Shown: piece by piece, positions 17,916 through 48,259 of the stretch
How the letters are laid out: the number at the start of each line of letters is the position of its first letter
Position numbering within the stretch: the stretch's first letter is position 1
NCBI GenBank assembly: GCA_043813525.1
Contig: JBDRKY010000068.1
Span: 1-48,803 of the forward strand
Direction of reading: 5' to 3'
DNA: 48,803 nucleotides
Origin: Candidatus Woesearchaeota archaeon
Lineage (GTDB): Archaea; Nanobdellota; Nanobdellia; Woesearchaeales; DSVV01
Notes under the pieces: generated by a model
The model's database searches: none
What the model saw: the letters and a program-made list of their open reading frames with translations, nothing else
What the model was told of the DNA's origin: nothing
Translations under genes and position numbers: made by a program

Positions 17916-18050
17916 ATGGTATTTAGGTCAAAAAAAGGGTTTTCCATGGTTTGGGAAGAGCTTGATATAAAAGTTATCTTTGTAGTTATACTTTTAATAT
18001 TAATATTTGCAGTATCATTATATTTGAGAAACATATTGTTTGGAAGTTGA
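17916..18050 (+). CDS. Possible 44-aa membrane peptide (not in the ORF track)
   Basis: Hand translation: MVFRSKKGFSMVWEELDIKVIFVVILLILIFAVSLYLRNILFGS, stop at 18048-18050. A TATA-like box sits at the right distance, and the ORF ends 7 nt before the next ATG. Confidence 0.3.
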   Translation: MVFRSKKGFSMVWEELDIKVIFVVILLILIFAVSLYLRNILFGS

Positions 18051-18057
18051 TTTTAAG

Positions 18058-30971: not shown

Positions 30972-31277
30972 TTAATTATCTTCAATGATTGAATAATCCT
31001 GTGGTATGCAGCAATGCATATCTTTGTTAACTTTTTTTGTATCATGATCAATACAGCTACTCACCTTATCTTCAACATAACCATCACCACAGCTAAAATC
31101 ACAGACTGCACCTTTAACTTTCTCACAATCAGACACACCAATATTGAACAATGCCAATCTTCCGGTGAATATCGCTGCAATAATGACAAGCACAAGCAAA
31201 GCTATAATAGCTATGATGATCATATTAAGTGATATATCTCCTTTTTTAGATTTAATTTTTTTAGATGTTTTGAACAT
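30972..31277 (-). CDS. Small pilin-like protein (class III signal peptide), six-Cys globular part
   Basis: MFKTSKKIKSKKG-DISLNMIIIAIIALLVLVIIAAIF, then six Cys in ~50 aa. Strong Shine-Dalgarno GAGGTGG on the minus strand at 31282-31288. Confidence 0.65.
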   Translation of the reverse strand: MFKTSKKIKSKKGDISLNMIIIAIIALLVLVIIAAIFTGRLALFNIGVSDCEKVKGAVCDFSCGDGYVEDKVSSCIDHDTKKVNKDMHCCIPQDYSIIEDN

Positions 31278-31357
31278 TTAACCACCTCATTTTGTGTATG
31301 TTTTATGTTTATTTAATATCAATTGTCGAATCTGATATATAAATATTACGCATAGTA

Positions 31358-31927
31358 TCAGATATTAGGACATTCCCCACCAACACATAACCAAATCTCC
31401 AATACTTCATCTGTTGGGTATATTGGAAGGGTATATGGTGTAACCTCAACACTTTTTGCTCTTGCAAATTCCTCTTCTAAATGCTTTATATCAGGTATTA
31501 TTTTAAGTGTACCGGCTTTTATCTTAAGATGAAATGGTCTGCCCATCTCCTTCAAAGATTCTGAAATAAGAGATATTGCACACACAGCTGCATCATCACC
31601 CATGTTGATATCCTTACAAGCATCCATATTAGAATACCTCTGTTCAAGCATATCAAGATTACAGGTGATTGTGCTTCCGCCGCCAGCTCTGACCATATCA
31701 ATCAACAGATCTTCTATAGTAGTATCTTTCGTACAACCAGAATCAGTCTTAAGCATGGCTCCTATTATGCTTGCTGACAGATCCTTTTGAATATAGCTTT
31801 CTAAAAAATCATCAGTTGGCTTAAAATACACTACTGAAACCACAAATAATACAACTAATGTGATTATAACTACAATGATCATCAGCCCCATTATTTCAGT
31901 CTGTGATTTTTTATGTTTATTTTTCAT
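31358..31927 (-). CDS. Pilin-like protein (class III signal peptide)
   Basis: MKNKHKKS-QTEIMGLMIIVVIITLVVLFVV. The start abuts the upstream stop (31927/31928). Confidence 0.6.
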   Translation of the reverse strand: MKNKHKKSQTEIMGLMIIVVIITLVVLFVVSVVYFKPTDDFLESYIQKDLSASIIGAMLKTDSGCTKDTTIEDLLIDMVRAGGGSTITCNLDMLEQRYSNMDACKDINMGDDAAVCAISLISESLKEMGRPFHLKIKAGTLKIIPDIKHLEEEFARAKSVEVTPYTLPIYPTDEVLEIWLCVGGECPNI

Positions 31928-32467
31928 TCAGCCAACAACCTCCAATACAATAAATCCAAAGCTGTTGGAATCAGCGATAGAATCATATATGGTAATAGGT
32001 ATAGATATTTTTTGAAAAGACTTTATGTCCTCATCTTTAATATATATATTATTAAATAATAGAATGCCTTCTTGATGAAGCAAATCTCCTGATGGTGCAA
32101 ATACCTGTTTGATTGTTATTTTTGCGTTAGGAAACATCTGCGCATAATACCTGCCATACCAATCCTTACCATCCATTACCAGTTTATAAACCTGAAGTTT
32201 TGCAAGATCAACACAATCAAACTCTTCAGTTGCTTGAGAAGTGCATTGTAATTCAGGAAGGAATTTAATTGCTAATGCCATATCAATTGCACGTTTAGCA
32301 TTAAACTCTTCACCATCTTTTTGAGTTATATGAGATTGTATCTTTGCATAAAAAACAAGACCAACAATAAGCAGTATAAAGAAGATTATAAGGACAATTA
32401 TAGATTCACCTAATTTAAGCTGTGATTGTTTCCTGAATTTCCTAATTTTCCTTATCTTTTTTTTCAT
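31928..32467 (-). CDS. Pilin-like protein (class III signal peptide)
   Basis: From the ATG at 32467: MKKKIRKIRKFRKQS-QLKLGESIIVLIIFFILLIVGLVFY. The longer ORF-track start at 32530 would overlap the upstream gene by 35 nt. Confidence 0.6.
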   Translation of the reverse strand: MKKKIRKIRKFRKQSQLKLGESIIVLIIFFILLIVGLVFYAKIQSHITQKDGEEFNAKRAIDMALAIKFLPELQCTSQATEEFDCVDLAKLQVYKLVMDGKDWYGRYYAQMFPNAKITIKQVFAPSGDLLHQEGILLFNNIYIKDEDIKSFQKISIPITIYDSIADSNSFGFIVLEVVG

Positions 32468-32495
32468 TTTATTTAAATTTATTAGTTCATTTGAA

Positions 32496-33584
32496 TCAAT
32501 ACAGCTTAGGGCATGAGTTAAGCACTGCATTTTGGTTTGTGTTAGCAGCTATATCATTTATATTTTTTAGTGCAATTAGATTATTAGCTGTGAATTGTCC
32601 AAGATATTTGATAGGTGTTTTAGGGAGTGACGCAAATCCTTCATAAATTTGGCTGCAATGTGAATATTTGGGATTATCTAACACATGTTGAGATAGGTAA
32701 CTTGCTCTTTCTCTGTAAATATCAAACAGACGATTAAGATGATTAAAGCTTTTTTCCATGCTGCATTTGTAAAAATCAGCATTCTCTGAAAAGATTGCAC
32801 CCATCAATGTTTCCTTTCCATAGTAACCATATTTAAGAACTGTAGCATAATTAACTCCATTTTTAACTTCATCCTTTGTGAAAAACATAGCATTACCTTC
32901 AAATACAGGCTCTAATACAACAACATCAAAATCACCTTTTTCAAAAAGTTCTGGATCAACTTTGATGTCGTCTTTACCAAACTGATAAAAAAAGACAAAC
33001 CTTATTTTTTCATGGCCTAAATCAGCCACATCAGCAAATTCATCATGTGCTTTAATCTCAACAGTGAGAAATTCATTATCAAGCATGAGATTATATACTT
33101 TGTTTGCAAAAGCTTCAGATACAGGATCATTATAAACAAGCACATATTTGATAGCAGGGCTTGTAAGATAAAGCAGATTACCTACTTTGAAAGGGACTGT
33201 CCAATCCAATGACCAAGTGATCAGATAATCGCTTTCAATATGTTCAGAGGTAAATATGACTTGGTGAGGAGTCTGTTTATTGACTCCTGTATCACCCATG
33301 GAAAAATCTGAGCTGCATCCTTCTTCACTGCAGTCTGGAAAACAAGTAAATCTCATCTCAAGTTTAGGTATCTCTAATTTCGTTGCTGATTTAGTTGAAG
33401 CAGTTGCGCCGCGCATGATTGAATCTAAATCAAACATAATCCTGCTGGCAAGCTTAATCTCAGAATTATGCAAATATGTTTTACCAGCAGATACAAAAAA
33501 TAAAAGTATGATTGTACCGACTATAAAGATAAATATCCAGTTAAATTGTACTTCAATGTCTCCTCTTTTTTTTAAGGTTTTCAT
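32496..33584 (-). CDS. Pilin-like protein (class III signal peptide), 362 aa
   Basis: MKTLKKRG-DIEVQFNWIFIFIVGTIILLFF, followed by a large soluble domain. Confidence 0.6.
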   Translation of the reverse strand: MKTLKKRGDIEVQFNWIFIFIVGTIILLFFVSAGKTYLHNSEIKLASRIMFDLDSIMRGATASTKSATKLEIPKLEMRFTCFPDCSEEGCSSDFSMGDTGVNKQTPHQVIFTSEHIESDYLITWSLDWTVPFKVGNLLYLTSPAIKYVLVYNDPVSEAFANKVYNLMLDNEFLTVEIKAHDEFADVADLGHEKIRFVFFYQFGKDDIKVDPELFEKGDFDVVVLEPVFEGNAMFFTKDEVKNGVNYATVLKYGYYGKETLMGAIFSENADFYKCSMEKSFNHLNRLFDIYRERASYLSQHVLDNPKYSHCSQIYEGFASLPKTPIKYLGQFTANNLIALKNINDIAANTNQNAVLNSCPKLY

Positions 33585-33594
33585 GTTATAATTA

Positions 33595-34104
33595 TTATGC
33601 TTCAGAGATCATCACACCATTACCTATACCAGTCATCTTGACTGAGAGTTTCCTGTCTGAAACTGCAAAGCATTTATATCCTTGTGGAATATCTTTATCA
33701 ACAATCATTTTAGTAAGATTTATTGGAGATTCCAACACAAAAGGTACAGTCATAACATTTTGTGATCCAGACTGCCAAGCATCACACATCACAGGATCAA
33801 GGTCAGGAAGGTCTATGCATCCACTTTTGTATTTGTCAGCAGTGAAAAAGCAGACTTTCTTGAGTTCCTTAGGAACAACATATGTCTTCACTTTCCAGCT
33901 GCCATATTTGGTGACCATCACATCAGTATCGTCTTGTAAACTTGTTTTGAATTCTACCAGGTCTATTGTCTCTACCTGTTTGAGAAGCTTGCCGATATAC
34001 TTAACACCTAATAACAATATCATACCAATGACAAAGATAGCAAGTATGTAAAATAACATCTGTTCAACCTGTGATTTTCGTTTAAATTTTCTAATTTTAG
34101 CCAT
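33595..34104 (-). CDS. Pilin-like protein (class III signal peptide)
   Basis: MAKIRKFKRKS-QVEQMLFYILAIFVIGMILLLGV. Lies 6 nt downstream of the 2405-aa gene. Confidence 0.6.
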   Translation of the reverse strand: MAKIRKFKRKSQVEQMLFYILAIFVIGMILLLGVKYIGKLLKQVETIDLVEFKTSLQDDTDVMVTKYGSWKVKTYVVPKELKKVCFFTADKYKSGCIDLPDLDPVMCDAWQSGSQNVMTVPFVLESPINLTKMIVDKDIPQGYKCFAVSDRKLSVKMTGIGNGVMISEA

Positions 34105-34110
34105 TAATTT

Positions 34111-37100
34111 TCACCTGTTTTTGTTTTTGAATTTTGCTAATTTTTTCAAAGCATCCCTGCTTTTTGATTTAACACCCAGTTTATCCAATGTGTTTATACT
34201 GCCTTTTTTTAGTTTGGATGATAATTTATCCAATGCAGAATCTGGTTTAAGTTTATCAGAGGATTTGTTCTTATTAAATCCAACTGATTTAACAGTTATT
34301 TTTTCTGTTTTGTCTGGTTTATTTTTAGGAATTGGCTTAACTAAAGATTTAACTGAAGATTTTGTAGTTGATTTAACTGATTGTTTAGCTGTTGGCGTAG
34401 TTGATAATATTTTGGGTGCAACCCTAAAATCTGTTTCTGTTTCTTTATCAGTTTTAGCCTTAAAAGCAGATGCAATCTCAAGCTTCTGTGCTTTAGTCTC
34501 AGCTTTTATTTCTTTAGTAAGTTCTTCTTTTCTTTTTTCATTCATTTCTTCCTTTCTTTGTTCTTTTGCTGCATTTATTCTTATCTTTCCAGCCTTAACT
34601 TCTTTTTCTGTCTCTTTAGGCTGGAGCTTAATATCATTACTTAATTTAGATCTTTCATCAAAAGCATTAAACATCTCCAATCTTTGCTTAAGTTTGCCAG
34701 ATGTTTTTTTCTGTCTCACATCTCTTGATAATGGCCTGAACAACGCATTCATATTATTAATCATGCTATTTTGCATTGACCTTTGCATTGGTTTAGGTTG
34801 CTGCATACCCTTTATGACAGGCCTTTGCTGCTGGATTGATTGAATAGTTTTAGGCATTTGCTGATGCATATTTTTGTTAGGAAATAATGGTTTCTCTTTT
34901 AAAAAATAATTAATATAATAGTAATATCCACAGCCGCCAAGCCCTGCAATCAATAATATCAAGATCAACCAAACAAATAAACTTGTACCCCCTTCTTTAT
35001 TATCATCTTTTTTAGGTTCTTCTGTTGTAGGTGGTTTTTCACATGAACTGCATGGTCCGCCGCAATCTATGCCTTCTTCTCCTTGATTTTTGATGCCATC
35101 ATCACAGCTTGCTGTTGATTCTTCACCTGGTTTGAGCTCACATTCCTTTGGACATTGTCCGCCACAATCAGCACCAAGCTCCTGTCCGTTCTGCACACCA
35201 TCATTGCATGTAGGTAAAGTACATAAACCAGCTTTGCAGTATCCACTTATGCAGTCACTATTGATATTGCAGTTCATATCATCTGCGCATGCTGCACAAT
35301 AACCGCCGCAATCTATGTCTGTCTCCAATTGATTAATGATGCCATCATCACACCCTGCACTTATGCATATGCCTAATTCACACTGGCCGCTCATACAATC
35401 AGAAACAAGATTACAGTTTTTACCATTTGAACATTCTTGGCAGCTTCCACCGCAGTCTATATCAGTCTCATCGTTATCTTTTACATCATTTTTACATAGA
35501 TCAATCTCTTCGTCAATCAAAATCTCCTCACCCGGATTATAATTAGGATCAACATATGTGCTATTGCTTGCGACAACACTCCATAAGCCAACAGAATTCT
35601 GCGCAATCACATTCCACCAATAAGTGGTCTCATTGTTTAGGTTTAGATTTTTTATTGTTTTCTTGTGGTCATCTGTTGAGCTCCATTCATATATATCATC
35701 CAGTCCAGCTGCAGTACCTATTGAAAAATTATATAATGAAACCATGATACCTTCATCATCTTCTGCTTCCCAGCTTGCTGTCAATGTTGTCAATGAATTA
35801 GTATAAGGCTGTGTTTTGACTTGAATATCAGGTGGTGATAGGTCTATATAAAATATGAAATGATCTTCAATCCATCCTTCTGCTGCAGTAAGGCATCTAA
35901 AATAGAAATCATGCTTGCCTTCAGAAAGCTGCAGAGGACCAGCAGTATGTATTTTATATCTATCAACACCTTCACTTACAGTGTTCATAACATATTGTTC
36001 TATCAGTTCTTTACTTGGACCAAATTCACAATTTGCTGCTTGTTTAGTTGTATGTAATTCAAAGGATACTGTGTTATAACCTAAATAAGTTTCAGGTTTG
36101 ACAAGAGTAAATCCTGTGAACATGGAAGTATTGACATTAAAAGTGAAATTTGCTTTTTCAGATATATGGTTTGATGCAGGCTCTGTTGGACCATTATCAC
36201 ACATGACATAATAAGTATAGCTATACCCATCAAACAGATTAGTTAAAGGCTGTTCATTGACAAAACTTAAATTTTCATATCCGTCAAAAGGCGTCATTGA
36301 AAAATAAGAGTCTGTATTGACAGTTGAGTATTTACATCTTGATTTATCATCTGTCACAATTGTAAGATTTGTAATAAGAGGATGTTCAACAATATTAGGC
36401 GGGCTTTTCCTGTCACTTGGCTCAATGAATACTTTCTCAAGGCTTGGAGGGGTGACATCCCATATCAATTCAACCTCTTTGATGTCAAACAAACCACCAG
36501 GGAAATCACATTTGATAAATACTGTATAATAAGTCTCTTCTGCCATCCCAGGAAAATTAATATGCTTCTTAAACTGTCTTCCTGATAATTTTTCTAATTG
36601 TGAAGTATAACCAACAAGAGGATTTGTTGATAATTTGCAGGTATCTGCAGGAGGAAGCTCTTTTGCGGTCTCAATGATAAGATCAAACTCTTCCACATCA
36701 GAAACACCTTTGATTGGTGATATTACATTTAATAGCTCTCCTTCAAAAGTAGATATGGCAATATAATACTCATAAACTGCAGAATCTTTGCCTGACCTGT
36801 CTTTTGCTGTCAAAACAATTTTATTATAACCTGAAGAAAGTTCTAATTCTTGGAAGAAATCATTGTTTGCATCAATATTCTCAAAAGATTGTATTGGTTC
36901 AAATTCTAATTCAATAGTTCCATCACCTGAATCTGCTCCATTTGTTCCAGTTGTTTTTGTTCCTGATGTTCCTGTTGCACCTGTTGCTGCCTGTAATTTT
37001 TGCAAAGCTTCTGCTGACAGACCATATACATTTATGTCTAATTTATTATTTGCAGGTGGACTAACTTCAGAATCACTATCAATTACTGCTCCTTTTAAAT

Positions 37101-40100
37101 TAAATAAAGTAGTATAATAGATATAAGGATTGAGTGGATCTGAATGAGGTTTAAGCAAAGGTACATCAATTACAGGACCATTATCAGAATCAATCAAAAG
37201 CTTGATGCATTTCTTTTGTTCTTGATTTCCACCATAATCTGTTCCTAAAGAATTATAAATATTTTCCTTTGATTGGTAACATAACCATTGTGATGATGCT
37301 GAAGATTCCACTTTGACAGATATATAAGGATCTATTACTGTTCCTTGTTGGCCTACACCTGACTGACCAATAACTTGTTGATTTCCAAAAGAAAGGTCGC
37401 ACTTAGCAGCACCTGATTGCAGGCAATAAATAGTATTTTCACAGCCAAAACCAAATTCAGGCTCATCATTGCATTCCAAGAACACAGAATCACCAGCCTC
37501 ATCTTTGTTATACCATTTTGAATAATCAAATGGCACACCACTGCCGCTTGTCAAGCTAGTTACTGGTGGAGTGATATCATAGACAAATTGTATCTCATCT
37601 TTGTGTAATTCATTGCTTAATGCAGGGAATTTGCACATTACTTTAAACTCATAAAGGCCATCTTCTGCCAAAGAGCTCTGTGTTGAATATTTCTTGAATT
37701 TACCGTTGGTATTATCATCTGTTTCAGTATCAAAAGATGTCAAGAGCTCAAATGAATCAGATGTACCATACCTGCAGTCACCTTTATGCAATGTTTTTAT
37801 TTCTAATTTGATAGGAGAATAATCAATCTTACCCATAGGAAGTGATGCCTGTATCTCCTGATCAGCATCAATAGTCACAAAAGTAGTCTTATTGATTTTA
37901 TTATCAAGCATATCTGTGCATACCACAGTATAATAATAAGTTCCATCTGTAAGACCATTATAGTTAGACTGAAAATATTGTCCCTGCTCATAATTAATCT
38001 TTTTTATACCATCATAACCTTCAAAGATATCATAACATTCCTTTGCAATCTCATCCAGTTCAACTGCAAAGAGTATAGAACTATCATCATATGGCTTTGA
38101 TTTGTCATAGGTAATGTATGGTGTAATCTTTATTTCAGGAGGTTTTTTATCAACATTAAATATGAAGCTTTTTACTTCTTCAAGATTTTTTGCGCCATCT
38201 GTTGAATAAAAGAACATAGTTTGTTTACCATTTTCTTTTGGTATTGAGATATAATCTAAGCCATCTTCAGGCTTAAATAATATGTTAGGATAACAATATC
38301 CTTTATACCCTTCATAATTAACTGTTAATTCTGTTGTTTCAGCAGAAAAGCCATAATTCTGATTGTTTGGGTGGCTGATTATGCTCTCAGACAACAATTT
38401 GTCTTCAGGAAAACAGTAATAGGTCTTTAATTCACCTGAACTTGGTCTGCCGTAAGGTGTTGGATCAGTGACAGCAAATTTTAATCTAATCTCATCAACA
38501 TTTGCAGGGACAATAACTTCTGTGACAGGAGGAATTATATCTATGGCTTTTTTACCAAGAGCAGTGCCGCCATCATGCTTGCCATCACCATCTGCATCTT
38601 TTATGCAATTATCACTTAATGGATTCCACCTGCATACACCTAATCCGAGAATGTCATTGCTCTTCCATTTGAGCTTGTTTGTACCCCATATCCTTTTTGT
38701 CCCGCCAGAAGTAAGATACCATGCATCAACTTCAACATCCCACGCATCCCCTGTTCCTTTGTAGCCATTTGCATGGCAATCTTTCTCATTATCTTTATAA
38801 TTAGTGCATGTCAACTCATGCTGTTCAACACATTTTTTGTTTAGATAATTGATATAGCATTTTGTATTTTCTGTGCTGAAACTTTCATAACATATATCTT
38901 TGGTGCATGAAGCAAATACACTGTTAGCACTCATTTTGTTGCACATATCACATGTCTTATAGTTTTCAACTTCATTAATACATAAGCCAATATCTAAAGA
39001 TCCTTTTTCAATTTCATCAGTTAATTTATTATCATAAGATGATTTCCACATACAGTTTTGTGCTAAGCATTTATTATTTGGCGTAAGATCATCCTCATCA
39101 AGAGCATATTGTTCACATGCTGTCTTAGATTTATAATCTGAACAGCTTCCTATATTTTTGCAATAACCATAAGCATCTTTGACAGTATTTGTAAAATCAT
39201 AATTGCAGATTGCATTTTTACTGCAGTCCATCTCAGAATCAACAACATTATAATCCATAAACCCTTTAGGAACACCAAGCATGCTTCCGTCTTTTCCTAA
39301 GCTGCCATACATGTTAAAAGGCTGTCCGCAAAATATACATGGTGTATTTGAAATGCAGCCAGTAGTGACTTTCCCATTTTCCTTTTTTTCGATACATATT
39401 GTATCAGGCCATGAATCACCATAACCATCACATTCATCAGATTGTAACAGATTATTTTCATCACAATAATATTTAAGGCTTTCAGAACCCACACCCATAC
39501 CTTCCCCTCTTAGACAAAAATCACCAGTATGGCTAAGACAGATATTGTGGCCTGAAGCAATATGTTCAATAGTTGAAAAACTTACTTCTTTGTCAGGATA
39601 AGTTGATTTGATGACATAGCTGTAATGTTTAAGATTATTATTAGAATTGCTTCCTTCAATCTTTGTATCATAGATACCAATAACTTCATAATTAGGGTTA
39701 AGGTTCGCACCTGGTTGGACAACACCATCTTTGCCAAAGCAAGGCATCTGTATGATAGTATCTGAATCTTTAGAATATACTATGCATTGTACTTGATCAG
39801 TTATATCTGTAAATTTAAAACTTGTCTCTAATGTAATCATGCTTTGAGAATCAGCGCCGCAGTTTCCTGGTGTGCCTTCGCATCTCATGATATTGAGTTC
39901 AATATTATTTTCCTGACAGCCAAAATAAAAACTTATGTTAATCCTTGGTTTTCCATAATCATGATTCAGTTTTAATTCCTGTGCAGGCATATGAAGACTC
40001 ACACATTTACACTGTCCGCATGTATCAGGAATGCCATCATTATATTTACAATCATTCACATTGCTTTTTATTATATCACCATTAGAGTTAGTTTCAGGAA

Positions 40101-41328
40101 AACAGCATTTCCAAAGATCATCTACTTCATCAAGATATGACACATCATAAATGTTCAATGATGGATTTTGGCTGTAATACCCATTGAAGCCAACAGGCCT
40201 GCAGCCATCAGGAGCAGCTGCTGATGCTTTAAGATTAGAACATTTCAGAGAAAAACAATCAGGATCAACACAATTCTGCTTATTATCCTTATCCTGATCA
40301 ATCTCTGCAGGATCAAGACATACTTCAATTGAACCTATTGGTTCAACACCAATCTCTACCAATTGGCTGTTTGAGCATTGATATTTATGCTTGCCATCTG
40401 CTTTAATCTCATAAGTGATTTCATTTTCAACACAGGCTGCACATGGCTCTTGGCTGCATTTACCATTGCAGCAATATTTTCCAGTGAAATAAGATGGTTT
40501 TGTTCCTGTGTAAGAAACAGTGTAATCAGGTATTGTATTTGGAAAGCCACATACATTGTTTCCGCATTTGCATAGTTCATCATTCTGTTTATCCACACTG
40601 CATTCATCAAATTCACAGCTTTCTGATACACCATAAGATTTGGTGCAGCAATCATCAGGATTTACTATTTTTTTGGTTGTATCAGCTGGGTTCAATAGAT
40701 TATTATAATATTGTTTTTTTTGTTCAGCATCATCTTTGTTATAATAGTTTGGAGCATAGAACCAGTTTTCATAAAAACCAAAAAAATCAATCTTACCATC
40801 ACCATCATTATCAATGCCATCCATACATTCAAGCTTTTCTAATGTTTGCATTTCAGAATCATCTTCAAGCCCGACACAATCTTTATCTTTAGGATAATCA
40901 AATAGACCATCCTGATCATCATCCACTCCGTTTGAACATGCTGGTAATTTACCGCTTTTTTTATAAACATTTGTTAGATCAACGCAATATTTTTTACATC
41001 CGTCAAAAGATTTGTCACCACCTTTAAACACAGGATTTGATAAGCTGTTACAGTATGCTTTTGTAATCACTGCATATTGTGCATAAACCTTGTCTACAGA
41101 ATTAAGAGAACAGCAGCATCCAATCTGGCATAGCTCATTATCAGATGATACAATCCCACCTGTATCTTCACATTGTGCATCATCTGCTACATTTTCTCCA
41201 TCACCAATCCCCTCACATGGCATATCTGGCAGATTAGGATATAAACACATATCAACAGCATTGACAGAACTAATTAAAATACTAAAAACTATTATAAATA
41301 TAACCAACTCTTTTTTAACAAATTTCAT
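34111..41328 (-). CDS. Giant (2405 aa) Cys-rich type I membrane surface protein with Lys-rich cytoplasmic tail
   Basis: Uninterrupted 7.2-kb ORF with ATG start. Signal peptide IFIIVFSILISSVNA. CxDGxDNDGDG-type acidic Cys motifs (~40770-40970). FN3-like segment (~35550-35850). Four DCGGxCxxC modules (35035-35505). TM helix LFVWLILILLIAGLGG (~34905-34985). 262-aa Lys/Ser/Thr-rich tail. Confidence 0.85.
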   Translation of the reverse strand: MKFVKKELVIFIIVFSILISSVNAVDMCLYPNLPDMPCEGIGDGENVADDAQCEDTGGIVSSDNELCQIGCCCSLNSVDKVYAQYAVITKAYCNSLSNPVFKGGDKSFDGCKKYCVDLTNVYKKSGKLPACSNGVDDDQDGLFDYPKDKDCVGLEDDSEMQTLEKLECMDGIDNDGDGKIDFFGFYENWFYAPNYYNKDDAEQKKQYYNNLLNPADTTKKIVNPDDCCTKSYGVSESCEFDECSVDKQNDELCKCGNNVCGFPNTIPDYTVSYTGTKPSYFTGKYCCNGKCSQEPCAACVENEITYEIKADGKHKYQCSNSQLVEIGVEPIGSIEVCLDPAEIDQDKDNKQNCVDPDCFSLKCSNLKASAAAPDGCRPVGFNGYYSQNPSLNIYDVSYLDEVDDLWKCCFPETNSNGDIIKSNVNDCKYNDGIPDTCGQCKCVSLHMPAQELKLNHDYGKPRINISFYFGCQENNIELNIMRCEGTPGNCGADSQSMITLETSFKFTDITDQVQCIVYSKDSDTIIQMPCFGKDGVVQPGANLNPNYEVIGIYDTKIEGSNSNNNLKHYSYVIKSTYPDKEVSFSTIEHIASGHNICLSHTGDFCLRGEGMGVGSESLKYYCDENNLLQSDECDGYGDSWPDTICIEKKENGKVTTGCISNTPCIFCGQPFNMYGSLGKDGSMLGVPKGFMDYNVVDSEMDCSKNAICNYDFTNTVKDAYGYCKNIGSCSDYKSKTACEQYALDEDDLTPNNKCLAQNCMWKSSYDNKLTDEIEKGSLDIGLCINEVENYKTCDMCNKMSANSVFASCTKDICYESFSTENTKCYINYLNKKCVEQHELTCTNYKDNEKDCHANGYKGTGDAWDVEVDAWYLTSGGTKRIWGTNKLKWKSNDILGLGVCRWNPLSDNCIKDADGDGKHDGGTALGKKAIDIIPPVTEVIVPANVDEIRLKFAVTDPTPYGRPSSGELKTYYCFPEDKLLSESIISHPNNQNYGFSAETTELTVNYEGYKGYCYPNILFKPEDGLDYISIPKENGKQTMFFYSTDGAKNLEEVKSFIFNVDKKPPEIKITPYITYDKSKPYDDSSILFAVELDEIAKECYDIFEGYDGIKKINYEQGQYFQSNYNGLTDGTYYYTVVCTDMLDNKINKTTFVTIDADQEIQASLPMGKIDYSPIKLEIKTLHKGDCRYGTSDSFELLTSFDTETDDNTNGKFKKYSTQSSLAEDGLYEFKVMCKFPALSNELHKDEIQFVYDITPPVTSLTSGSGVPFDYSKWYNKDEAGDSVFLECNDEPEFGFGCENTIYCLQSGAAKCDLSFGNQQVIGQSGVGQQGTVIDPYISVKVESSASSQWLCYQSKENIYNSLGTDYGGNQEQKKCIKLLIDSDNGPVIDVPLLKPHSDPLNPYIYYTTLFNLKGAVIDSDSEVSPPANNKLDINVYGLSAEALQKLQAATGATGTSGTKTTGTNGADSGDGTIELEFEPIQSFENIDANNDFFQELELSSGYNKIVLTAKDRSGKDSAVYEYYIAISTFEGELLNVISPIKGVSDVEEFDLIIETAKELPPADTCKLSTNPLVGYTSQLEKLSGRQFKKHINFPGMAEETYYTVFIKCDFPGGLFDIKEVELIWDVTPPSLEKVFIEPSDRKSPPNIVEHPLITNLTIVTDDKSRCKYSTVNTDSYFSMTPFDGYENLSFVNEQPLTNLFDGYSYTYYVMCDNGPTEPASNHISEKANFTFNVNTSMFTGFTLVKPETYLGYNTVSFELHTTKQAANCEFGPSKELIEQYVMNTVSEGVDRYKIHTAGPLQLSEGKHDFYFRCLTAAEGWIEDHFIFYIDLSPPDIQVKTQPYTNSLTTLTASWEAEDDEGIMVSLYNFSIGTAAGLDDIYEWSSTDDHKKTIKNLNLNNETTYWWNVIAQNSVGLWSVVASNSTYVDPNYNPGEEILIDEEIDLCKNDVKDNDETDIDCGGSCQECSNGKNCNLVSDCMSGQCELGICISAGCDDGIINQLETDIDCGGYCAACADDMNCNINSDCISGYCKAGLCTLPTCNDGVQNGQELGADCGGQCPKECELKPGEESTASCDDGIKNQGEEGIDCGGPCSSCEKPPTTEEPKKDDNKEGGTSLFVWLILILLIAGLGGCGYYYYINYFLKEKPLFPNKNMHQQMPKTIQSIQQQRPVIKGMQQPKPMQRSMQNSMINNMNALFRPLSRDVRQKKTSGKLKQRLEMFNAFDERSKLSNDIKLQPKETEKEVKAGKIRINAAKEQRKEEMNEKRKEELTKEIKAETKAQKLEIASAFKAKTDKETETDFRVAPKILSTTPTAKQSVKSTTKSSVKSLVKPIPKNKPDKTEKITVKSVGFNKNKSSDKLKPDSALDKLSSKLKKGSINTLDKLGVKSKSRDALKKLAKFKNKNR

Positions 41329-41353
41329 GTTATAGTTAAATCTATTAATTAAT

Positions 41354-41370
41354 ACTATATATAAAGTTTA
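41354..41370 (-). promoter_or_regulatory. BRE/TATA-like box for the 2405-aa gene
   Basis: The minus strand reads taaactttatatatagt. The TATA portion lies 28-35 nt upstream of the ATG at 41328. Confidence 0.35.
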
Positions 41371-41429
41371 TTAGTTTTATGTTATTATTGATAAATAGTT
41401 ATATATTATTAATACATATTGAGAAAAAA

Positions 41430-43808
41430 TTATTTGCATCCATCTTTTGTACATTCTTTATCTTTAGAGCATGGTTTAGATACTGTCTTAAAATTATGAT
41501 TAGACACCTGCATATGAAAATAACATATATCTTCATTATGGCAATAGCCTTTATAGAATGAGCCTTCAGTGCATGGACCAGGGATATAAATAAAATATAC
41601 ATTTTTGTCTGGAATCAAAGATGTCATCACAGAACTTTTTTGGTTGACACTATAAATTTTCTTGTTTATGTAAAGGTTTTTGTTGCCATCAGCAGCATCA
41701 TAACCAAAAGTATTGCCGCCTTTCTCTACAAAATTTCTGAACTCATCTGTTTCTGGTACAACAAAAGGGCCGGCATTGTTCACTGTATTTTTGACAATAA
41801 CATATCTTCCATCTAAATAATACATCTCATAAGGAAGTTTAGTCCCTTCTAATGCTTTGGATATAAGCACATCAAACTCATCATTGTTGACAGGTGACTG
41901 CATTGTTTCAGTTGACATTTCTGTTGGTTGTTGAGATGATAATGGTTGTGTTTCCGTTGGTTGTTGAGATAGTGATTCTGTTGGTTGGATAGGCTGGATA
42001 GGAGAAGTATCATGTTCAATATCTGAATTTGGAGATTCAGAATATTCTGGAGCAATTGGTACAGTAGGAATAGAATCAGATGAACCTTCATCTCCACTTG
42101 GTGCAAAAAATATTGATTGTGCAATTACCTGTTTTTTCCCCAAAGTTACAATGCTATCTTGAAATACCCCTAAAGATTTTCCTTCGACAATATAACCTTT
42201 TGAATTATCATATGTACTGAATGCATCTTTAGGCAGTATTAATATTTTAATTTCCTGCCAATCACATTGATTCATCAAATCACATACTTTGATTTTAATT
42301 ATTCTTGCACCAATATCTTTTTTTCCAAGTTTGTAGGTCACTTTTCTTAATGGAGATGCAGGCGATGAAGAAGAGAATGATGAAGGGGCAGTCGTTGATA
42401 CCAGACAGCTTTTGATGCCATTCAAAAAACTATTGATATTAGAATTTTCTGAGCCTGAAAATATACAATCAAGAGCACCATCGCCATCTTTATCTTCTTT
42501 AAATTCAGTATATCCATTAACAAAATTTCCATTTAGCCAGCTTTGGAAATCATATATATAACCATAATTCATAAGATTGTCACTGCCATAATAATCTTCA
42601 TCAGGATCATAGCCATAAGGATCAATGACTAAAGTCATTCCTTCAACAAGTATTGCATCATAATCAAAATTATCCATTTTCAGACCATCAATAGTGATAT
42701 AATCAAGTGCAGGATATCTATTTTGGAAAACAACCTGATAATCAAATTTATGTCCATCGATCATCGATTCAGTATCACTTATTGTTATGATATAATCTTT
42801 GTTAGGCAGTAATTTTTTTTCAACAATCATACCAGGTTTAAGGCAGCTTTTATCATTATCACTTCCGCAATTTTTCAGGACTGCTGCATTTCTCACATCA
42901 AAAAATATATTTTTTGAATCCTCCTGCCTGATTCTAGCCAATAAATCAAACATCTGTTTCAGCCTTATATTTTTTTCAACAGTTATGCCGCTGATATCAA
43001 TTGTTGGCGAAGTTTCATCAACTGTTATTGACAGACTTAAATTCATCCTTGAAATCACAGTAGTCTCACCAATGATTATATCAACATTCATATTTTCTTT
43101 AATGATATTATACCCTTGAAGCTCTGGTAGAGATTCTAATTTTATGCAGTCATCTGTTTTTTGTGTGATGTAGCTTTCCAGATATTCCTGTACTGAATTT
43201 ATATCTTTGATGTCAGCAGAATCAAACATTTTAGGTGCATCGCCGCAGTATGGATCAATTGAATCATGAAAGCTGTTTGGCCCATTTTTATCACATAATG
43301 GAATAAAAGGGTCGTCAGATAATGCACTGATAAATGGTGTTGAGAAAGAAGTATAGCCGTATACAGCAATATCTGAGCTTAGAAAAGGCTCTGATATTGC
43401 AGTATAAATTTCATTCTTAAAAGGATATTCCGGAACTTTTCTGCCAGTTCCTGTTGCAGAAACTTCAGGAGCAAGAAGAGCATAATGTATCTTCACACCA
43501 TCTTCATCTTCATAATATCTGCTGTTCTTGTCAGGTTTGCCGTTTATAGTCTGGCTGTCATAGATAGCACCGCCTTGTTTTCCAATGAGCTGCAGGCCTT
43601 GTTTTGTTGCTTGATCAAGACAGCTTTTGATATAAGTAGTATATTTTCCTTTTCCTATGAATAGCTCTTCAACCTGCTGCTGCTTTGCCTTGACAGATTT
43701 GCCTGTGCTGTTAGACACACCATAGAAAGCCAAACCTATAAGGATTACAGCAGTTATACCAAGAATCATAAAAATAGCAATTTGAGATTTCCTGTTCATG
43801 TTCAGCAT
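41430..43808 (-). CDS. 792-aa protein with pilin-type N-terminus and large extracellular body
   Basis: The track start at 43811 is TTG. The ATG at 43808 gives MLNMNRKS-QIAIFMILGITAVILIGLAFYGV. GAGGGG lies 10 nt upstream. There is a Pro/Gln/Thr/Ser-rich linker (~41880-42110) and a Cys-rich C-terminal ~50 aa. Confidence 0.8.
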   Translation of the reverse strand: MLNMNRKSQIAIFMILGITAVILIGLAFYGVSNSTGKSVKAKQQQVEELFIGKGKYTTYIKSCLDQATKQGLQLIGKQGGAIYDSQTINGKPDKNSRYYEDEDGVKIHYALLAPEVSATGTGRKVPEYPFKNEIYTAISEPFLSSDIAVYGYTSFSTPFISALSDDPFIPLCDKNGPNSFHDSIDPYCGDAPKMFDSADIKDINSVQEYLESYITQKTDDCIKLESLPELQGYNIIKENMNVDIIIGETTVISRMNLSLSITVDETSPTIDISGITVEKNIRLKQMFDLLARIRQEDSKNIFFDVRNAAVLKNCGSDNDKSCLKPGMIVEKKLLPNKDYIITISDTESMIDGHKFDYQVVFQNRYPALDYITIDGLKMDNFDYDAILVEGMTLVIDPYGYDPDEDYYGSDNLMNYGYIYDFQSWLNGNFVNGYTEFKEDKDGDGALDCIFSGSENSNINSFLNGIKSCLVSTTAPSSFSSSSPASPLRKVTYKLGKKDIGARIIKIKVCDLMNQCDWQEIKILILPKDAFSTYDNSKGYIVEGKSLGVFQDSIVTLGKKQVIAQSIFFAPSGDEGSSDSIPTVPIAPEYSESPNSDIEHDTSPIQPIQPTESLSQQPTETQPLSSQQPTEMSTETMQSPVNNDEFDVLISKALEGTKLPYEMYYLDGRYVIVKNTVNNAGPFVVPETDEFRNFVEKGGNTFGYDAADGNKNLYINKKIYSVNQKSSVMTSLIPDKNVYFIYIPGPCTEGSFYKGYCHNEDICYFHMQVSNHNFKTVSKPCSKDKECTKDGCK

Positions 43809-43840
43809 CAATCATTTACCCCTCTTTTAATCTTAATATT

Positions 43841-48004: not shown

Positions 48005-48259
48005 ATATACACACTCCTTTTTCAAACTTCAGCAAACAACAGCAAAAGATAAGATAAAAATGCTAAATAGCTGATAAATGATATTATATCTTAGGTAATA
48101 ATGCAAGTCAGTAGACTTACAATTATTATAATCTTATTTTTTATATATATAAAGTTTCTGATTTTTAATAGATTTTATATTTTTAATTTATTTATATATC
48201 AATAAAAATATAAAAGCAAAAAATATTAATACCTGCACTTTTAGAAAGATAATAATCTA

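What the first reader, a model, noticed from the sequence alone, without database searches (positions are those of the whole stretch)
34111..41328. 2405-aa type I membrane protein: huge Cys-rich ectodomain plus a 262-aa Lys-rich cytoplasmic tail
Seen: one 7.2-kb ORF. It has a cleavable-looking signal peptide and an ectodomain of about 2090 aa that is dense in cysteines. Acidic motifs CSNGVDDDQDGLFD and CMDGIDNDGDGKID lie near the N-terminus. An FN3-like stretch (TASWEAEDDEG...YWWNVIAQNSVGLWS) follows, then a single TM helix. The tail is very basic and low-complexity (KxxK, SVKS repeats) and I counted it at 262 residues. Established: CxDGxDNDGDG-type motifs resemble the MopE-type putative metal/Ca-binding repeats seen in myxobacterial and other secreted proteins. 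Inference: this is an anchored adhesin whose basic tail could contact nucleic acid, the membrane inner face or a cytoskeletal partner. Outside-in coupling of that kind is not expected for a simple S-layer protein.
Basis: partly seen in the sequence, partly recalled or inferred. Interest (0 to 1): 0.7.

Follow-up and report, generated by a model that had tools for sequence, protein, structure and literature searches.

The report
Giant anchored adhesin in pilin-gene cluster
This is a real 2405-residue, membrane-anchored surface protein of a tiny symbiotic-type archaeon (Woesearchaeota), always encoded next to pilin-like genes, and its basic inner tail carries two short conserved motifs shared by hundreds of similar giant proteins, which points to an undescribed link between the cell surface and the cell interior.

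Summary
Window 34111-41328 (-) is one intact 2405-aa ORF with a Sec-type signal peptide, a 2090-aa acidic, Cys-rich ectodomain, one TM helix (aa 2116-2142) and a 263-aa Lys-rich tail. Colinear orthologs in independent Woesearchaeota/Nanobdellota assemblies rule out a chimera.

No Pfam, NCBIfam or PDB family claims it. The acidic motifs resemble the teneurin C-rich/TSP3-type Ca-binding module rather than MopE. Residues 931-1930 are predicted as about ten Ig/FN3-like beta-sandwiches.

Two things are new.
- The gene always sits in one cassette: a secreted Cys-rich protein, a large pilin-like protein, the giant, then four or five small proteins with class-III (prepilin-like, +1 Gln) N-termini.
- The TM plus tail is a widespread unnamed C-terminal module. 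It matches 505 protein clusters, and every one that carries a name is DPANN. It has two conserved motifs: M1, [IL]RKKRxEEKxKERxxLFxAF, and M2, DVFxKLKxI, near the C-terminus.

Best reading: a Ca-stabilised, disulfide-rich fibrillar adhesin that works with a type-IV-filament-like apparatus, with the tail docking to an intracellular partner or the inner membrane face. The tail's partner is inferred, not shown. I rate it a new variant of a known kind, of moderate to high interest.

The parts
34111..41328 (-). Whole gene: 2405-aa type I membrane protein. The stop codon is at 34111-34113.
   Evidence: Full-length colinear orthologs.
41257..41328 (-). Signal peptide, aa 1-24 (MKFVKKELVIFIIVFSILISSVNA|VD). 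It is Sec/SPase-I type.
   Evidence: Hydropathy peak. A -3/-1 small-residue site is present in most of the twelve relatives inspected. No class-III pattern was detected.
39997..41256 (-). Distal Cys-rich head, aa 25-444. It includes two acidic Cys-flanked DxDxDG modules at aa 131-144 (40897-40938) and aa 168-181 (40786-40827).
   Evidence: Motif positions. NCBIfam NF033662 E=6.4e-5, 22.6 bits, below the cut-off of 41. Teneurin-4 C-rich domain 7plp E=0.0085. The AF2 model is poor here, pLDDT 30-45.
39514..39996 (-). Beta-sandwich region, aa 445-605. It is the only confidently modelled part of the N-terminal half.
   Evidence: pLDDT is mostly 62-86. Foldseek matches to FN3 pairs are weak, E about 0.01.
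38539..39513 (-). Conserved Cys-rich core, aa about 606-930. It holds CIFCGQPFNMYG, SCSDYKSK, NNKCL..C.W and a DADGDG loop at aa 911-916. The fold is unknown.
   Evidence: More than 30 invariant Cys across 13 relatives. No Pfam or PDB match.
35830..38538 (-). Stalk, aa 931-1833: about nine Ig-like beta-sandwich domains separated by D-x-x-P-P linkers.
   Evidence: The AF2 model is all-beta with many blocks at pLDDT 70-90. Foldseek PDB matches are GhpA hook base 9fly at 4e-16, mastigoneme, contactin and titin. Weak Big_13 and SiiE matches.
35539..35829 (-). FN3-like domain, aa 1834-1930.
   Evidence: Seven predicted strands at pLDDT 73-89. Profile matches to FN3 of midline-2 and titin at E 0.08-0.25. 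No Pfam fn3 hit.
35041..35496 (-). Four membrane-proximal Cys-rich repeats, aa 1945-2096 (C.[DN]G..N..E..[IA]DCGG.C..C...).
   Evidence: Repeat alignment. Invariant Cys/DCGG columns. Short 38-56% identical matches in many unrelated giant proteins. No PDB or Pfam match. Low pLDDT.
34903..34983 (-). Single transmembrane helix, aa 2116-2142.
   Evidence: Second and last hydropathy peak. Conserved in all relatives.
34114..34902 (-). Cytoplasmic polybasic tail, aa 2143-2405: 263 aa, 20.5% Lys, net charge +38.
   Evidence: The profile of TM plus tail finds 505 protein clusters, almost all matched at their extreme C-terminus.
34654..34719 (-). Tail motif M1, aa 2204-2225 (VRQKKTSGKLKQRLEMFNAFDE).
   Evidence: R2216 and F2223 are invariant in A1 and A4. 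The consensus from 58 tails has R at 94% and F at 98%.
34114..34161 (-). Tail motif M2 in a degenerate form, aa 2390-2405 (SRDALKKLAKFKNKNR). The family consensus is DVFxKLKxI.
   Evidence: The strict pattern lies in the last 35 aa in 9 of 17 relatives, against 0.01 expected from shuffles. The window's own copy fails the strict pattern.
41329..41429 (-). Upstream intergenic region with a TATA-like element (ctttatatata). Its 3' end lies about 27 nt upstream of the ATG.
   Evidence: Read directly from the sequence. The promoter function is inferred.
41430..43811 (-). Upstream partner gene, 793 aa, with a class-III-like N-terminus (NRKS|QIAIFMILG...).
   Evidence: The ortholog sits upstream of the giant gene in L001, L003, L004, L005, L006, L009 and L010.
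43841..48025 (-). First gene of the cassette, 1394 aa: Sec signal, 50 Cys.
   Evidence: Orthologs in L001, L005, L006, L009, L010 and L014.
30972..34104 (-). Five downstream genes of 169, 362, 200, 189 and 101 aa. All have a short basic N-terminus, then K/R-[GAS] followed by Q or D, then a hydrophobic helix. The first starts 6 nt after the giant gene's stop codon.
   Evidence: Orthologs lie in the same order in L001 and L002 at E 1e-11 to 1e-163. The same size pattern is seen in L003, L004, L009, L010, L012, L014, L015 and L016.

Best explanation
The ORF encodes a genuine giant type I membrane protein of a Woesearchaeota-type (Nanobdellota, DPANN) archaeon. It is the signature large subunit of a conserved surface-apparatus gene cassette.

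Outside the cell (partly shown, partly inferred): a Sec signal peptide exports a 2090-aa acidic ectodomain. From the membrane outward it consists of:
- four small Cys-knot-like repeats;
- an FN3-like domain;
- about nine Ig-like beta-sandwiches that form a rod some tens of nanometres long;
- a strongly conserved Cys-rich core of unknown fold;
- a more variable Cys-rich head with two or three Cys-flanked DxDxDG acidic loops that probably bind Ca2+.
The even number of ectodomain cysteines (110) suggests that all are paired in disulfides.

In the membrane and inside the cell: one C-terminal TM helix anchors the protein. A 263-aa, probably disordered, polybasic tail stays in the cytoplasm. It carries two short conserved, probably helical motifs:
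- M1: [IL]RKKRxEEKxKERxxLFxAF;
- M2: DVFxKLKxI, near the C-terminus.

The gene is co-oriented with, and probably co-transcribed with, a set of proteins that have class-III (prepilin-like, +1 Gln) N-termini.

Most likely mechanism (inferred): the protein is a fibrillar adhesin or host-contact protein that works beside or at the base of a type-IV-filament-like structure built from the neighbouring pilin-like proteins. The tail is almost the only cytoplasmically exposed part of the cassette's products. It probably docks the complex to a conserved intracellular partner or to the acidic inner membrane face, which would fix its position or couple it to the inside.
For: The ORF is real:
- The frame is intact.
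- It is colinear with P0002 (51% identity over the full length), P0003-P0006 and the Woesearchaeota MAG loci L005 and L006.

Topology:
- Only two hydrophobic segments are present.
- Net charge is -162 for the ectodomain and +38 for the tail.

Stalk:
- The AF2 model of aa 925-2110 is all-beta with a mean pLDDT of 65.
- Foldseek returned 311 PDB matches at E<=0.001, and the listed top ones are nearly all multi-Ig/FN3 proteins. GhpA, the grappling-hook protein, is on top.
- A 2026 preprint reports that archaeal type-IV-filament loci often encode large Ig-rich adhesin-like proteins resembling GhpA.

Ca-binding modules: NF033662 at E=6.4e-5. Teneurin-4 C-rich domain at E=0.0085, which binds three Ca2+ ions (PMC9058538).

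Disulfides: the ectodomain Cys count is even in 10 of 12 relatives.

Cassette:
- The same gene order was found in 12 or more independent loci, including relatives of 1685 to 6163 aa.
- The neighbours' N-termini fit the class-3 signal of Methanococcus pilins, which is 5-13 aa long with Gln at +1 (PMC3875500).

Tail module:
- The TM plus tail profile found 505 clusters at E<=1e-3 and 92 at E<=1e-10. Matches lie at the C-terminal end of proteins of 700-6163 aa.
- M1 and M2 recur in those hits.
- All carriers that have a name are Woesearchaeota, Nanoarchaeota or DPANN.

Conservation pattern: the distal head is variable, the proximal stalk is conserved, and the tail is poorly conserved apart from the motifs. 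This is what is expected of an adhesin with a disordered tail carrying short linear motifs.
Against: - There is no experimental or expression evidence.
- No adhesin, pilin or S-layer family model matches the giant protein or its neighbours. 'Pilin-like' therefore rests on N-terminal pattern and synteny alone.
- No type-IV-filament ATPase, platform protein or prepilin peptidase lies within 8-10 kb in any locus examined.
- The N-terminal 900 aa could not be modelled (pLDDT 49), so nothing identifies a binding site.
- The window's own M2 is degenerate.
- Lys-rich low-complexity sequence could inflate some of the 505 profile hits. Only 59 of 154 inspected tails pass a strict search with the M1 model alone.
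- No partner for the tail is known.
Confidence: 0.55

Rival explanations
1. It is an envelope-building protein: an S-layer subunit or S-layer stalk or anchor, like tetrabrachion. It would hold the cell wall at a fixed distance from the membrane and would not be an adhesin. The pilin-like neighbours would then be envelope-embedded 'bindosome-like' components.
For: - It has a C-terminal TM anchor and a long rod of beta-sandwich domains.
- There appears to be one copy per genome locus, with wide conservation in the lineage.
- The 2026 preprint notes that some Ig-rich proteins of type-IV-filament loci resemble S-layer proteins.
- Periodic surface layers have been seen on ultrasmall groundwater cells (PMC7906910).
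Against: - No S-layer family match was found.
- The size varies from 1685 to 6163 aa and the head evolves fast. That is unusual for a lattice-forming protein.
- A 95-340-aa tail bearing conserved motifs is not needed for a simple anchor.
Confidence: 0.2
2. The tail has no specific partner. It would be a topogenic (positive-inside) and membrane-hugging polybasic region whose charge binds acidic archaeal lipids. M1 and M2 would be amphipathic membrane-binding helices.
For: - Net positive charge is kept in all relatives, +3 to +42, even where composition shifts to Arg or to Ala/Pro/Lys.
- Hydrophobic residues in M1 (L, F, F) and M2 (V/F, L, I) have i, i+3/4, i+7 spacing, read directly from the sequences.
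Against: - A few basic residues are enough for topology.
- 94-98% conservation of single Arg and Phe positions across divergent proteins suggests a stereospecific contact rather than bulk electrostatics.
- M1 lies at a variable distance from both the TM helix and the C-terminus, 8-260 aa from the latter.
Confidence: 0.25
3. The tail binds nucleic acid. It would tether the nucleoid, or imported DNA or RNA, to the host-contact apparatus.
For: - Some relatives have histone-H1-like Lys/Ala/Pro tracts, for example P0003 ...KPAKPKS...KAPAKPKPKATKAKTSKPK.
- From general knowledge: DPANN cells depend on imported nucleotides, and type IV filaments serve DNA uptake in other organisms.
Against: No DNA-binding fold or motif was detected. 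Basic low-complexity tails are common next to membranes. Nothing in the cassette is a nuclease or translocase.
Confidence: 0.1
4. It is a PilY1-like tip adhesin. It would be held in the membrane only until it is loaded onto a minor-pilin tip complex (the four downstream proteins), then released by cleavage near the TM helix.
For: - The arrangement of four or five small pilin-like genes next to one or more very large non-pilin proteins mirrors bacterial minor-pilin/PilY1 operons (the analogy is from general knowledge).
- In an archaeon without an outer membrane, a soluble adhesin would be lost unless tethered (inference).
Against: No cleavage motif or sortase-type signal was recognised. No PilY1 homology was found. 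A long conserved cytoplasmic tail would be wasteful for a transient anchor.
Confidence: 0.1
5. The ORF is an assembly chimera or a frameshifted pseudogene.
For: One relative, L006 (RIFCSPHIGHO2_02_FULL_33_21), has the gene split into two ORFs of 533 and 1772 aa. This shows that such breaks occur in assemblies of this gene.
Against: The window's frame is uninterrupted. It is colinear end to end with independent assemblies: P0002, L005, and P0003-P0006.
Confidence: 0.02

Closest known systems
Large Ig-fold-rich 'adhesin-like' proteins encoded in archaeal type IV filament (TFF) loci (bioRxiv 10.64898/2026.04.22.720090), and the Aureispira grappling-hook protein GhpA (PDB 9fly)
   Same: Giant size and a tandem Ig-like beta-sandwich rod. 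The best Foldseek match is GhpA. The gene is encoded among pilin-like genes.
   Different: - No sequence-family link to the arCOGs named in that preprint was tested.
- This protein has a Sec signal, a C-terminal TM helix and a long conserved cytoplasmic tail.
- The core ATPase and platform genes are not adjacent here.
- Its Cys-rich head and core have no counterpart in GhpA.
Bacterial Ca2+-dependent fibrillar/giant adhesins (e.g. Salmonella SiiE, BIg-domain stalks)
   Same: A rod of Ig-like domains, an acidic ectodomain and predicted Ca2+ sites. There are weak profile matches to SiiE BIg domains and to Big_13.
   Different: SiiE-type adhesins are T1SS substrates without a TM helix or tail and without cysteines. 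This protein is Sec-exported, disulfide-rich and TM-anchored.
Teneurin C-rich Ca2+-binding domain / thrombospondin type 3 repeat / NCBIfam 'acidic double-disulfide repeat' (NF033662)
   Same: The C-x-DG-x-D-N-D-G-D-G-x-x-D pattern flanked by Cys. Matches at E=0.0085 to 7plp and 6.4e-5 to NF033662. The teneurin domain binds three Ca2+ ions (PMC9058538).
   Different: Only two or three copies are present, and the score is below the NCBIfam cut-off (22.6 against 41 bits). Ca2+ binding was not tested. The rest of the protein is unrelated to teneurins.
Methanococcus maripaludis Epd pilus genes (EppA-processed pilins with class 3 signal peptides, +1 Gln)
   Same: The neighbours have short basic N-termini ending in G, A or S, followed by Gln and a hydrophobic helix. 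They include several 'minor pilin'-sized proteins and one of about 90 aa.
   Different: No Pfam or NCBIfam pilin model hits them. Glu is at +3 or +6 rather than +5. No peptidase, ATPase or platform gene lies in the locus.
Tetrabrachion and other archaeal surface proteins with a C-terminal TM anchor
   Same: A large archaeal ectodomain held by one C-terminal TM helix (the comparison is from general knowledge).
   Different: Tetrabrachion is a coiled-coil stalk with a short tail. This protein is all-beta and Cys-rich with a 263-aa tail carrying conserved motifs. No sequence similarity was found.
Eukaryotic type I adhesion receptors (integrins, cadherins) whose cytoplasmic tails carry short docking motifs
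   Same: It works like them in outline only: a modular ectodomain, a single TM helix, and a disordered tail with conserved short motifs.
   Different: There is no homology, and the only PDB 'hits' to integrin are TM-helix noise. The partner and any signalling are unknown.
MopE-type putative metal-binding motif
   Same: An Asp/Asn/Gly-rich motif next to Cys.
   Different: The scan of all Pfam-A models, which I take to include the MopE motif model, gave no hit for the N-terminal segment even at E<=5.

Membership tests
Type I (Nout-Cin) single-pass membrane protein | Cleavable N-terminal signal peptide, exactly one further TM helix, and a positive-inside charge bias | tested here: met
   There are two hydropathy peaks only. 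A VNA|VD site is present. Net charge is -162 for the ectodomain and +38 for the tail. DeepTMHMM and SignalP were not available.
Fibronectin type III domain (Pfam fn3) | Significant match to the fn3 sequence model | tested here: not met
   No fn3 hit for aa 1825-1945 at E<=5. The only hit was Ig_Rha78A_N at E=0.037.
Fibronectin type III domain (fold level) | Seven-stranded beta-sandwich similar to solved FN3 domains | tested here: inconclusive
   Seven strands are predicted for aa 1834-1926 at pLDDT 73-89. Profile matches to midline-2 and titin FN3 are at E 0.08-0.25. The whole-model Foldseek matches include FN3 arrays, but this single domain was not searched on its own.
MopE-type metal-binding motif (Pfam Cu-binding_MopE) | Match to the Pfam motif model | tested here: not met
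   No hit at E<=5 for aa 25-330.
Acidic double-disulfide repeat (NCBIfam NF033662) | Score at or above the curated cut-off of 41 bits | tested here: not met
   22.6 bits, E=6.4e-5, two stretches, the best at aa 130-153. This is a resemblance only.
Teneurin C-rich / TSP3-like Ca2+-binding module | Acidic residues coordinating Ca2+, stapled by disulfides | not testable with these tools
   The sequence match to 7plp is at E=0.0085. Metal binding needs experiment, and the AF2 model is unreliable here.
Archaeal S-layer protein families / halomucin | Match to any S-layer family model, or to halomucin-type repeats | tested here: not met
   Zero Pfam families at E<=0.01 for the whole protein and nothing relevant at E<=5 by segment. 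NCBIfam gave none. Homologs found carry no such names.
Archaeal type IV pilin-like proteins (the neighbouring genes) | Class III signal: short basic N-terminus, G/A/S at -1, then a hydrophobic helix (Gln at +1 in the EppA type) | tested here: met
   The pattern is seen in the 793-, 169-, 362-, 189- and 101-aa products by script, and in the 200-aa product by eye. It is seen in essentially every downstream gene of the related loci. Reference pattern: PMC3875500.
Archaeal type IV pilin-like proteins (the neighbouring genes) | Match to a pilin or class-III-signal family model, or to a solved pilin | tested here: not met
   No Pfam or NCBIfam hits. The PDB profile search gave only noise.
Type IV filament (TFF) system locus | ATPase, platform protein and prepilin peptidase encoded with the pilins | tested here: not met
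   None of these lies in the window among the ORFs scanned or within 8-10 kb in L001-L004 and L014-L016. Whether they lie elsewhere in the genomes could not be tested.
New 'TM + polybasic tail with M1/M2' C-terminal module (proposed here) | C-terminal TM helix followed by a basic tail containing [IL]RKKRxEEKxKERxxLFxAF, and usually DVFxKLKxI near the end | tested here: met
   The window protein has M1 at aa 2204-2225 with the invariant Arg and Phe, and a degenerate M2. The module profile finds 505 clusters.

The most novel reading that the evidence does not exclude
The TM helix plus polybasic tail with motifs M1 and M2 could be a DPANN-specific cytoplasmic docking module. Through it, giant host-contact adhesins would be physically coupled to an intracellular machine such as a type-IV-filament motor or platform, a ParA/MinD-type positioning ATPase, or a division or cytoskeletal protein. 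That would be an archaeal, independently evolved counterpart of integrin-like coupling between surface and interior. The whole conserved cassette, which in some relatives ends in pilin-like proteins fused to cell-wall hydrolase domains, would then be the host-attachment and host-penetration organelle of Woesearchaeota.
Probability: 0.2. Interest if true: 0.85.

Novelty: new variant of a known kind. Interest (0 to 1): 0.6.

Why it matters
How DPANN archaea recognise, hold and exploit their hosts is a long-standing open question, and almost none of them can be grown.

This locus offers a concrete, lineage-wide candidate apparatus:
- a giant TM-anchored adhesin;
- a fixed set of pilin-like partners;
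- in some relatives, pilin-like cell-wall hydrolases.

The conserved tail motifs give a short, testable handle. Peptides, pull-downs and structure prediction of complexes could find what the surface apparatus is connected to inside the cell.

The TM plus tail module could also be turned into a family model. That would allow annotation of hundreds of currently 'hypothetical' giant proteins.

Tried and rejected
Family and structure searches that found nothing usable:
- Pfam on the whole protein and on six neighbours gave nothing.
- Pfam on nine segments at E<=5 gave only sub-threshold hints: EF-hand_8, Big_13, Glucodextran_B and Ig_Rha78A_N.
- NCBIfam gave only the sub-threshold acid_disulf_rpt match.
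- PDB sequence searches with the tail, the Cys repeats and the Cys-rich core returned noise.
- The AF2 model of aa 25-935 was too poor to use (mean pLDDT 49). Its Foldseek search had no match at E<=0.001.
- The candidate small 'major pilin' family A5 matched no Pfam family or solved pilin.

Other checks:
- tRNA and Rfam scans of the window found nothing.
- Tandem repeats in the gene are trivial.
- The first literature search, on Woesearchaeota pilins and cysteine-rich proteins, returned nothing relevant.

Ideas considered and rejected or left open:
- MopE membership: rejected, no model hit.
- S-layer or halomucin membership: rejected, no hit.
- A class-III signal on the giant protein itself: rejected. 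The N-terminus fits SPase I in most relatives, and my pattern did not fire on it.
- Chimera or frameshift: rejected, because the orthologs are colinear.
- MIT-interacting (MIM1), PIP-box or FtsZ C-terminal-peptide identities for M1 and M2: the spacings do not fit those consensus motifs. This is a comparison from memory and was not tested.


Full report
**1. The observation**

Window 34111-41328 on the minus strand is a single ATG-initiated ORF of 2405 codons. Hydropathy scanning finds only two hydrophobic stretches. The first is aa 1-24, a Sec-type signal with a VNA|VD site. The second is aa 2116-2142, the TM helix.

The ectodomain (aa 25 to about 2115) carries 110 of the 111 cysteines and has a net charge of -162. 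The 263-aa tail is 20.5% Lys with a net charge of +38. The other 35 ORFs of the window average 1.8% Cys and 8.7% Lys.

Cysteines are not evenly spread. They are dense in aa 25-1000 and aa 1945-2096 and sparse (about 2%) in aa 1000-1900.

The frame is colinear with full-length orthologs from independent assemblies. P0002 is 51% identical over 100% of the length. L005 and L006 are Woesearchaeota MAGs. P0003-P0006 are 29-30% identical, and P0005 is annotated as Nanobdellota. An assembly chimera is therefore very unlikely.

**2. What the ectodomain is made of**

No Pfam or NCBIfam model reaches its threshold anywhere in the protein.

A 13-sequence alignment allowed an AlphaFold2 model of aa 925-2110. 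It is entirely beta, has a mean pLDDT of 65, and has many blocks at 70-90. Foldseek against the PDB gave 311 matches at E<=0.001. The listed top ones are nearly all proteins built from tandem Ig/FN3 domains. The top match is the base of the Aureispira grappling-hook protein GhpA (9fly, 4e-16). Mastigoneme proteins, contactin, titin and receptor phosphatases follow.

Counting strand groups and the recurring D-x-x-P-P linkers gives about nine Ig-like domains (aa 931-1833). A seven-stranded FN3-like domain follows (aa 1834-1930, pLDDT 73-89). 'FN3-like' holds at the level of the predicted fold. It does not hold at sequence-family level: no Pfam fn3 hit was found, and PDB profile matches to FN3 domains have E 0.08-0.25.

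Four Cys-rich repeats (aa 1945-2096) sit next to the membrane. They are conserved in the family and occur as short 38-56% identical matches in many unrelated giant proteins. They match nothing solved or curated.

The N-terminal 900 aa could not be modelled (pLDDT 49). The exception is one beta-sandwich region at aa 445-605. Residues 606-930 contain more than 30 invariant cysteines across 13 relatives and are a conserved core of unknown fold.

The acidic motifs match the NCBIfam 'acidic double-disulfide repeat' below its cut-off (E=6.4e-5, 22.6 against 41 bits). They also match the C-rich domain of teneurin-4 (7plp, E=0.0085). That domain binds three Ca2+ ions in a thrombospondin-type-3-like manner (PMC9058538). 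The scan of all Pfam-A models found no MopE-motif hit. Ca2+ binding is therefore a reasonable inference, and MopE membership is not supported.

The ectodomain Cys count is even in 10 of 12 relatives, as expected if the cysteines are paired in disulfides.

**3. Genomic context**

All genes from 48025 down to 30972 are on the same strand as the giant gene.
- Upstream lies a 1394-aa Sec-signal protein with 50 Cys.
- Next is a 793-aa protein whose N-terminus reads NRKS|QIAIFMILG.
- Downstream, starting 6 nt after the giant gene's stop codon, are genes of 169, 362, 200, 189 and 101 aa.
- Each of those five begins with a few basic residues, then K/R-[G/A/S], then Q or D, then a helix of about 20 hydrophobic residues.

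That is the pattern of archaeal class 3 (prepilin-type) signal peptides. Methanococcus pilins processed by EppA have 5-13-residue signals, Gln at +1 and Glu at +5 (PMC3875500).

The same order and sizes recur in every related locus I could fetch. The order is a secreted protein of about 1000 aa, a pilin-like protein of 370-1060 aa, the giant, then proteins of about 170, 350, 170, 165-190 and 90 aa.
- These loci are L001-L006, L009, L010, L012 and L014-L016.
- They include relatives whose giant protein is 1685, 1769, 2709, 3436 or 6163 aa long.
- Pairwise orthology to the window's genes has E values from 1e-11 to 1e-163.

In several loci another ten or so genes with the same kind of N-terminus follow. 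In L001 and L003 the series ends with such an N-terminus fused to an NlpC/P60 or a VanY peptidase domain.

None of these small proteins matches a pilin model or a solved pilin. No filament ATPase, platform protein or prepilin peptidase lies within 8-10 kb. 'Pilin-like' is thus an inference from pattern and synteny.

A 2026 preprint on archaeal type IV filament systems reports two relevant things. Such loci often encode large Ig-rich adhesin-like proteins resembling GhpA. Pilin genes are often encoded away from the core machinery.

**4. The tail**

This is the second new point. Overall the tail is the least conserved part of the protein. It is 25-36% identical to P0002, against 63-69% for the membrane-proximal stalk. 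It nevertheless contains two islands of conservation.
- M1 in the window is VRQKKTSGKLKQRLEMFNAFDE (aa 2204-2225). R2216 and F2223 are invariant in the family alignments.
- M2 lies within the last 35 or so residues and has the consensus DVFxKLKxI. The strict pattern is present there in 9 of 17 relatives, against 0.01 expected from shuffled tails. The window's own copy (SRDALKKLAKF) is a degenerate form.

A profile of TM plus tail was searched against 1.84 billion representative proteins. It returned 505 clusters at E<=1e-3 and 92 at E<=1e-10. In nearly all of them the match is at the extreme C-terminus of a protein of 700-6163 aa. The short hits look like fragments.

The hits carry the same motifs. 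An M1-only model recovers 59 of 154 tails. The resulting consensus is [IL][RL]KKRxEEKxKER(E/K)xLFxAF, with the Arg at 94% and the last Phe at 98%.

All hits that carry a name are from Woesearchaeota, Nanoarchaeota or 'DPANN group' archaea. The module has no Pfam, NCBIfam or PDB counterpart.

Positive net charge is retained even where composition changes, for example to Arg-rich in L007 or to a histone-H1-like Lys/Ala/Pro tract in P0003.

**5. Interpretation**

Shown:
- the gene is real;
- the topology is type I by hydropathy and charge;
- the ectodomain contains a long predicted Ig/FN3-like rod;
- the gene belongs to a conserved cassette with class-III-like proteins;
- TM plus tail is a widespread, DPANN-restricted module with two conserved motifs.

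Inferred:
- the protein is a Ca2+-stabilised, disulfide-rich fibrillar adhesin or host-contact protein;
- it cooperates with a type-IV-filament-like structure built by its neighbours;
- the tail docks to a conserved partner or to the inner leaflet. It is essentially the only cytoplasmic part of the cassette's products.

Pili-like connections between ultrasmall cells and hosts have been imaged in the groundwater communities from which one of the closest relatives (L005) comes (PMC7906910).

The rivals are set out with their refuting tests in the rival-explanations section. They are an envelope or S-layer stalk, a tail that only hugs the membrane, a nucleic-acid-binding tail, and a releasable PilY1-like tip adhesin.

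**6. Comparison and novelty**

Giant modular adhesins, TM-anchored archaeal surface proteins and Ig-rich proteins in type-IV-filament loci are all known kinds. What is not described, as far as the libraries and papers searched here show, is threefold:
- this family;
- its fixed cassette;
- above all, the conserved cytoplasmic tail module.

I therefore rate it a new variant of a known kind, with interest 0.6. The most novel reading still allowed is a dedicated link between surface and interior at a host-attachment organelle. It has perhaps a 0.2 probability, but it is directly testable with the motifs defined here.

Noticed in passing
window 18040-18960 (+) and 18970-19917 (+): Two more genes (306 and 315 aa) with pilin-like N-termini. 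They are orthologs of a gene pair that lies inside or just downstream of the giant-gene cluster in L001, L002, L003, L009, L010, L012 and L014. In this genome the pair sits about 11 kb away on the other strand, so the cluster has been split or inverted.
   Followed up: partly
L001 25608-26213 and L003 23632-24349: The last genes of the extended clusters have the same class-III-like N-terminus (MKNKKAQ|HIFSV..., MIKQKKAS|FFSII...). They are fused to NlpC/P60 or VanY-type (weak hit) cell-wall peptidase domains. This could mean the apparatus attacks a host's peptidoglycan.
   Followed up: partly
L002 1154-1987 (-) and L010 6683-7510 (+): A Bro-N-domain gene (Pfam hit on record for L002 only) is inserted just upstream of the giant gene in two loci. 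Their giant proteins are 51% and 28% identical to the window's protein. The two inserted genes look highly similar over their first 100 residues by eye. This looks like a mobile gene with a preferred insertion site. The window has no such gene.
   Followed up: no
L006 7992-14715: In the RIFCSPHIGHO2_02_FULL_33_21 Woesearchaeota genome the orthologous giant gene is split into two ORFs of 533 and 1772 aa. The cause is a frameshift, a sequencing error or a pseudogene.
   Followed up: no
window 43841-48025 (-): A 1394-aa Sec-signal protein with 50 Cys and no family match. Its ortholog heads the cassette in L001, L005, L006, L009, L010 and L014. It is a second uncharacterised giant surface protein of the same apparatus.
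   Followed up: partly
window 30008-30934 (-): A 308-aa protein with an N-terminal AbrB/MazE-type (SpoVT-AbrB) domain lies directly after the pilin-like genes. It is conserved in that position in the close relatives L002, L005 and L006 (57% identity to the L002 ortholog) but not in distant ones. It may be a local regulator.
   Followed up: no
window 25506-27731 (+): A 741-aa ORF joins a PyrK-like module (NAD-binding and DHODB Fe-S domains) to an amidohydrolase (dihydroorotase-like) domain. It lies within a block of genes that includes an OMP-decarboxylase gene and looks like pyrimidine biosynthesis. This is an unusual fusion, or two genes merged by ORF calling.
   Followed up: no
window 8319-12065 (+): A 1248-aa secreted subtilase (Peptidase_S8, E=3e-47) with a long C-terminal extension that matches no family.
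   Followed up: no
L007, L009-L012 (record titles): Several TPA metagenome bins that carry this DPANN-type cassette are titled 'uncultured Methanosarcinales archaeon', and one weak hit is titled Saccharibacteria. These labels look doubtful given the gene content, but I did not check marker genes.
   Followed up: no
P0003/P0004/L012 tails: In these relatives the tail between M1 and M2 is a Lys/Ala/Pro-rich tract that resembles histone H1 C-terminal domains. The window's tail is Lys/Ser/Thr/Gln-rich instead. Charge is conserved, but composition is not.
   Followed up: partly
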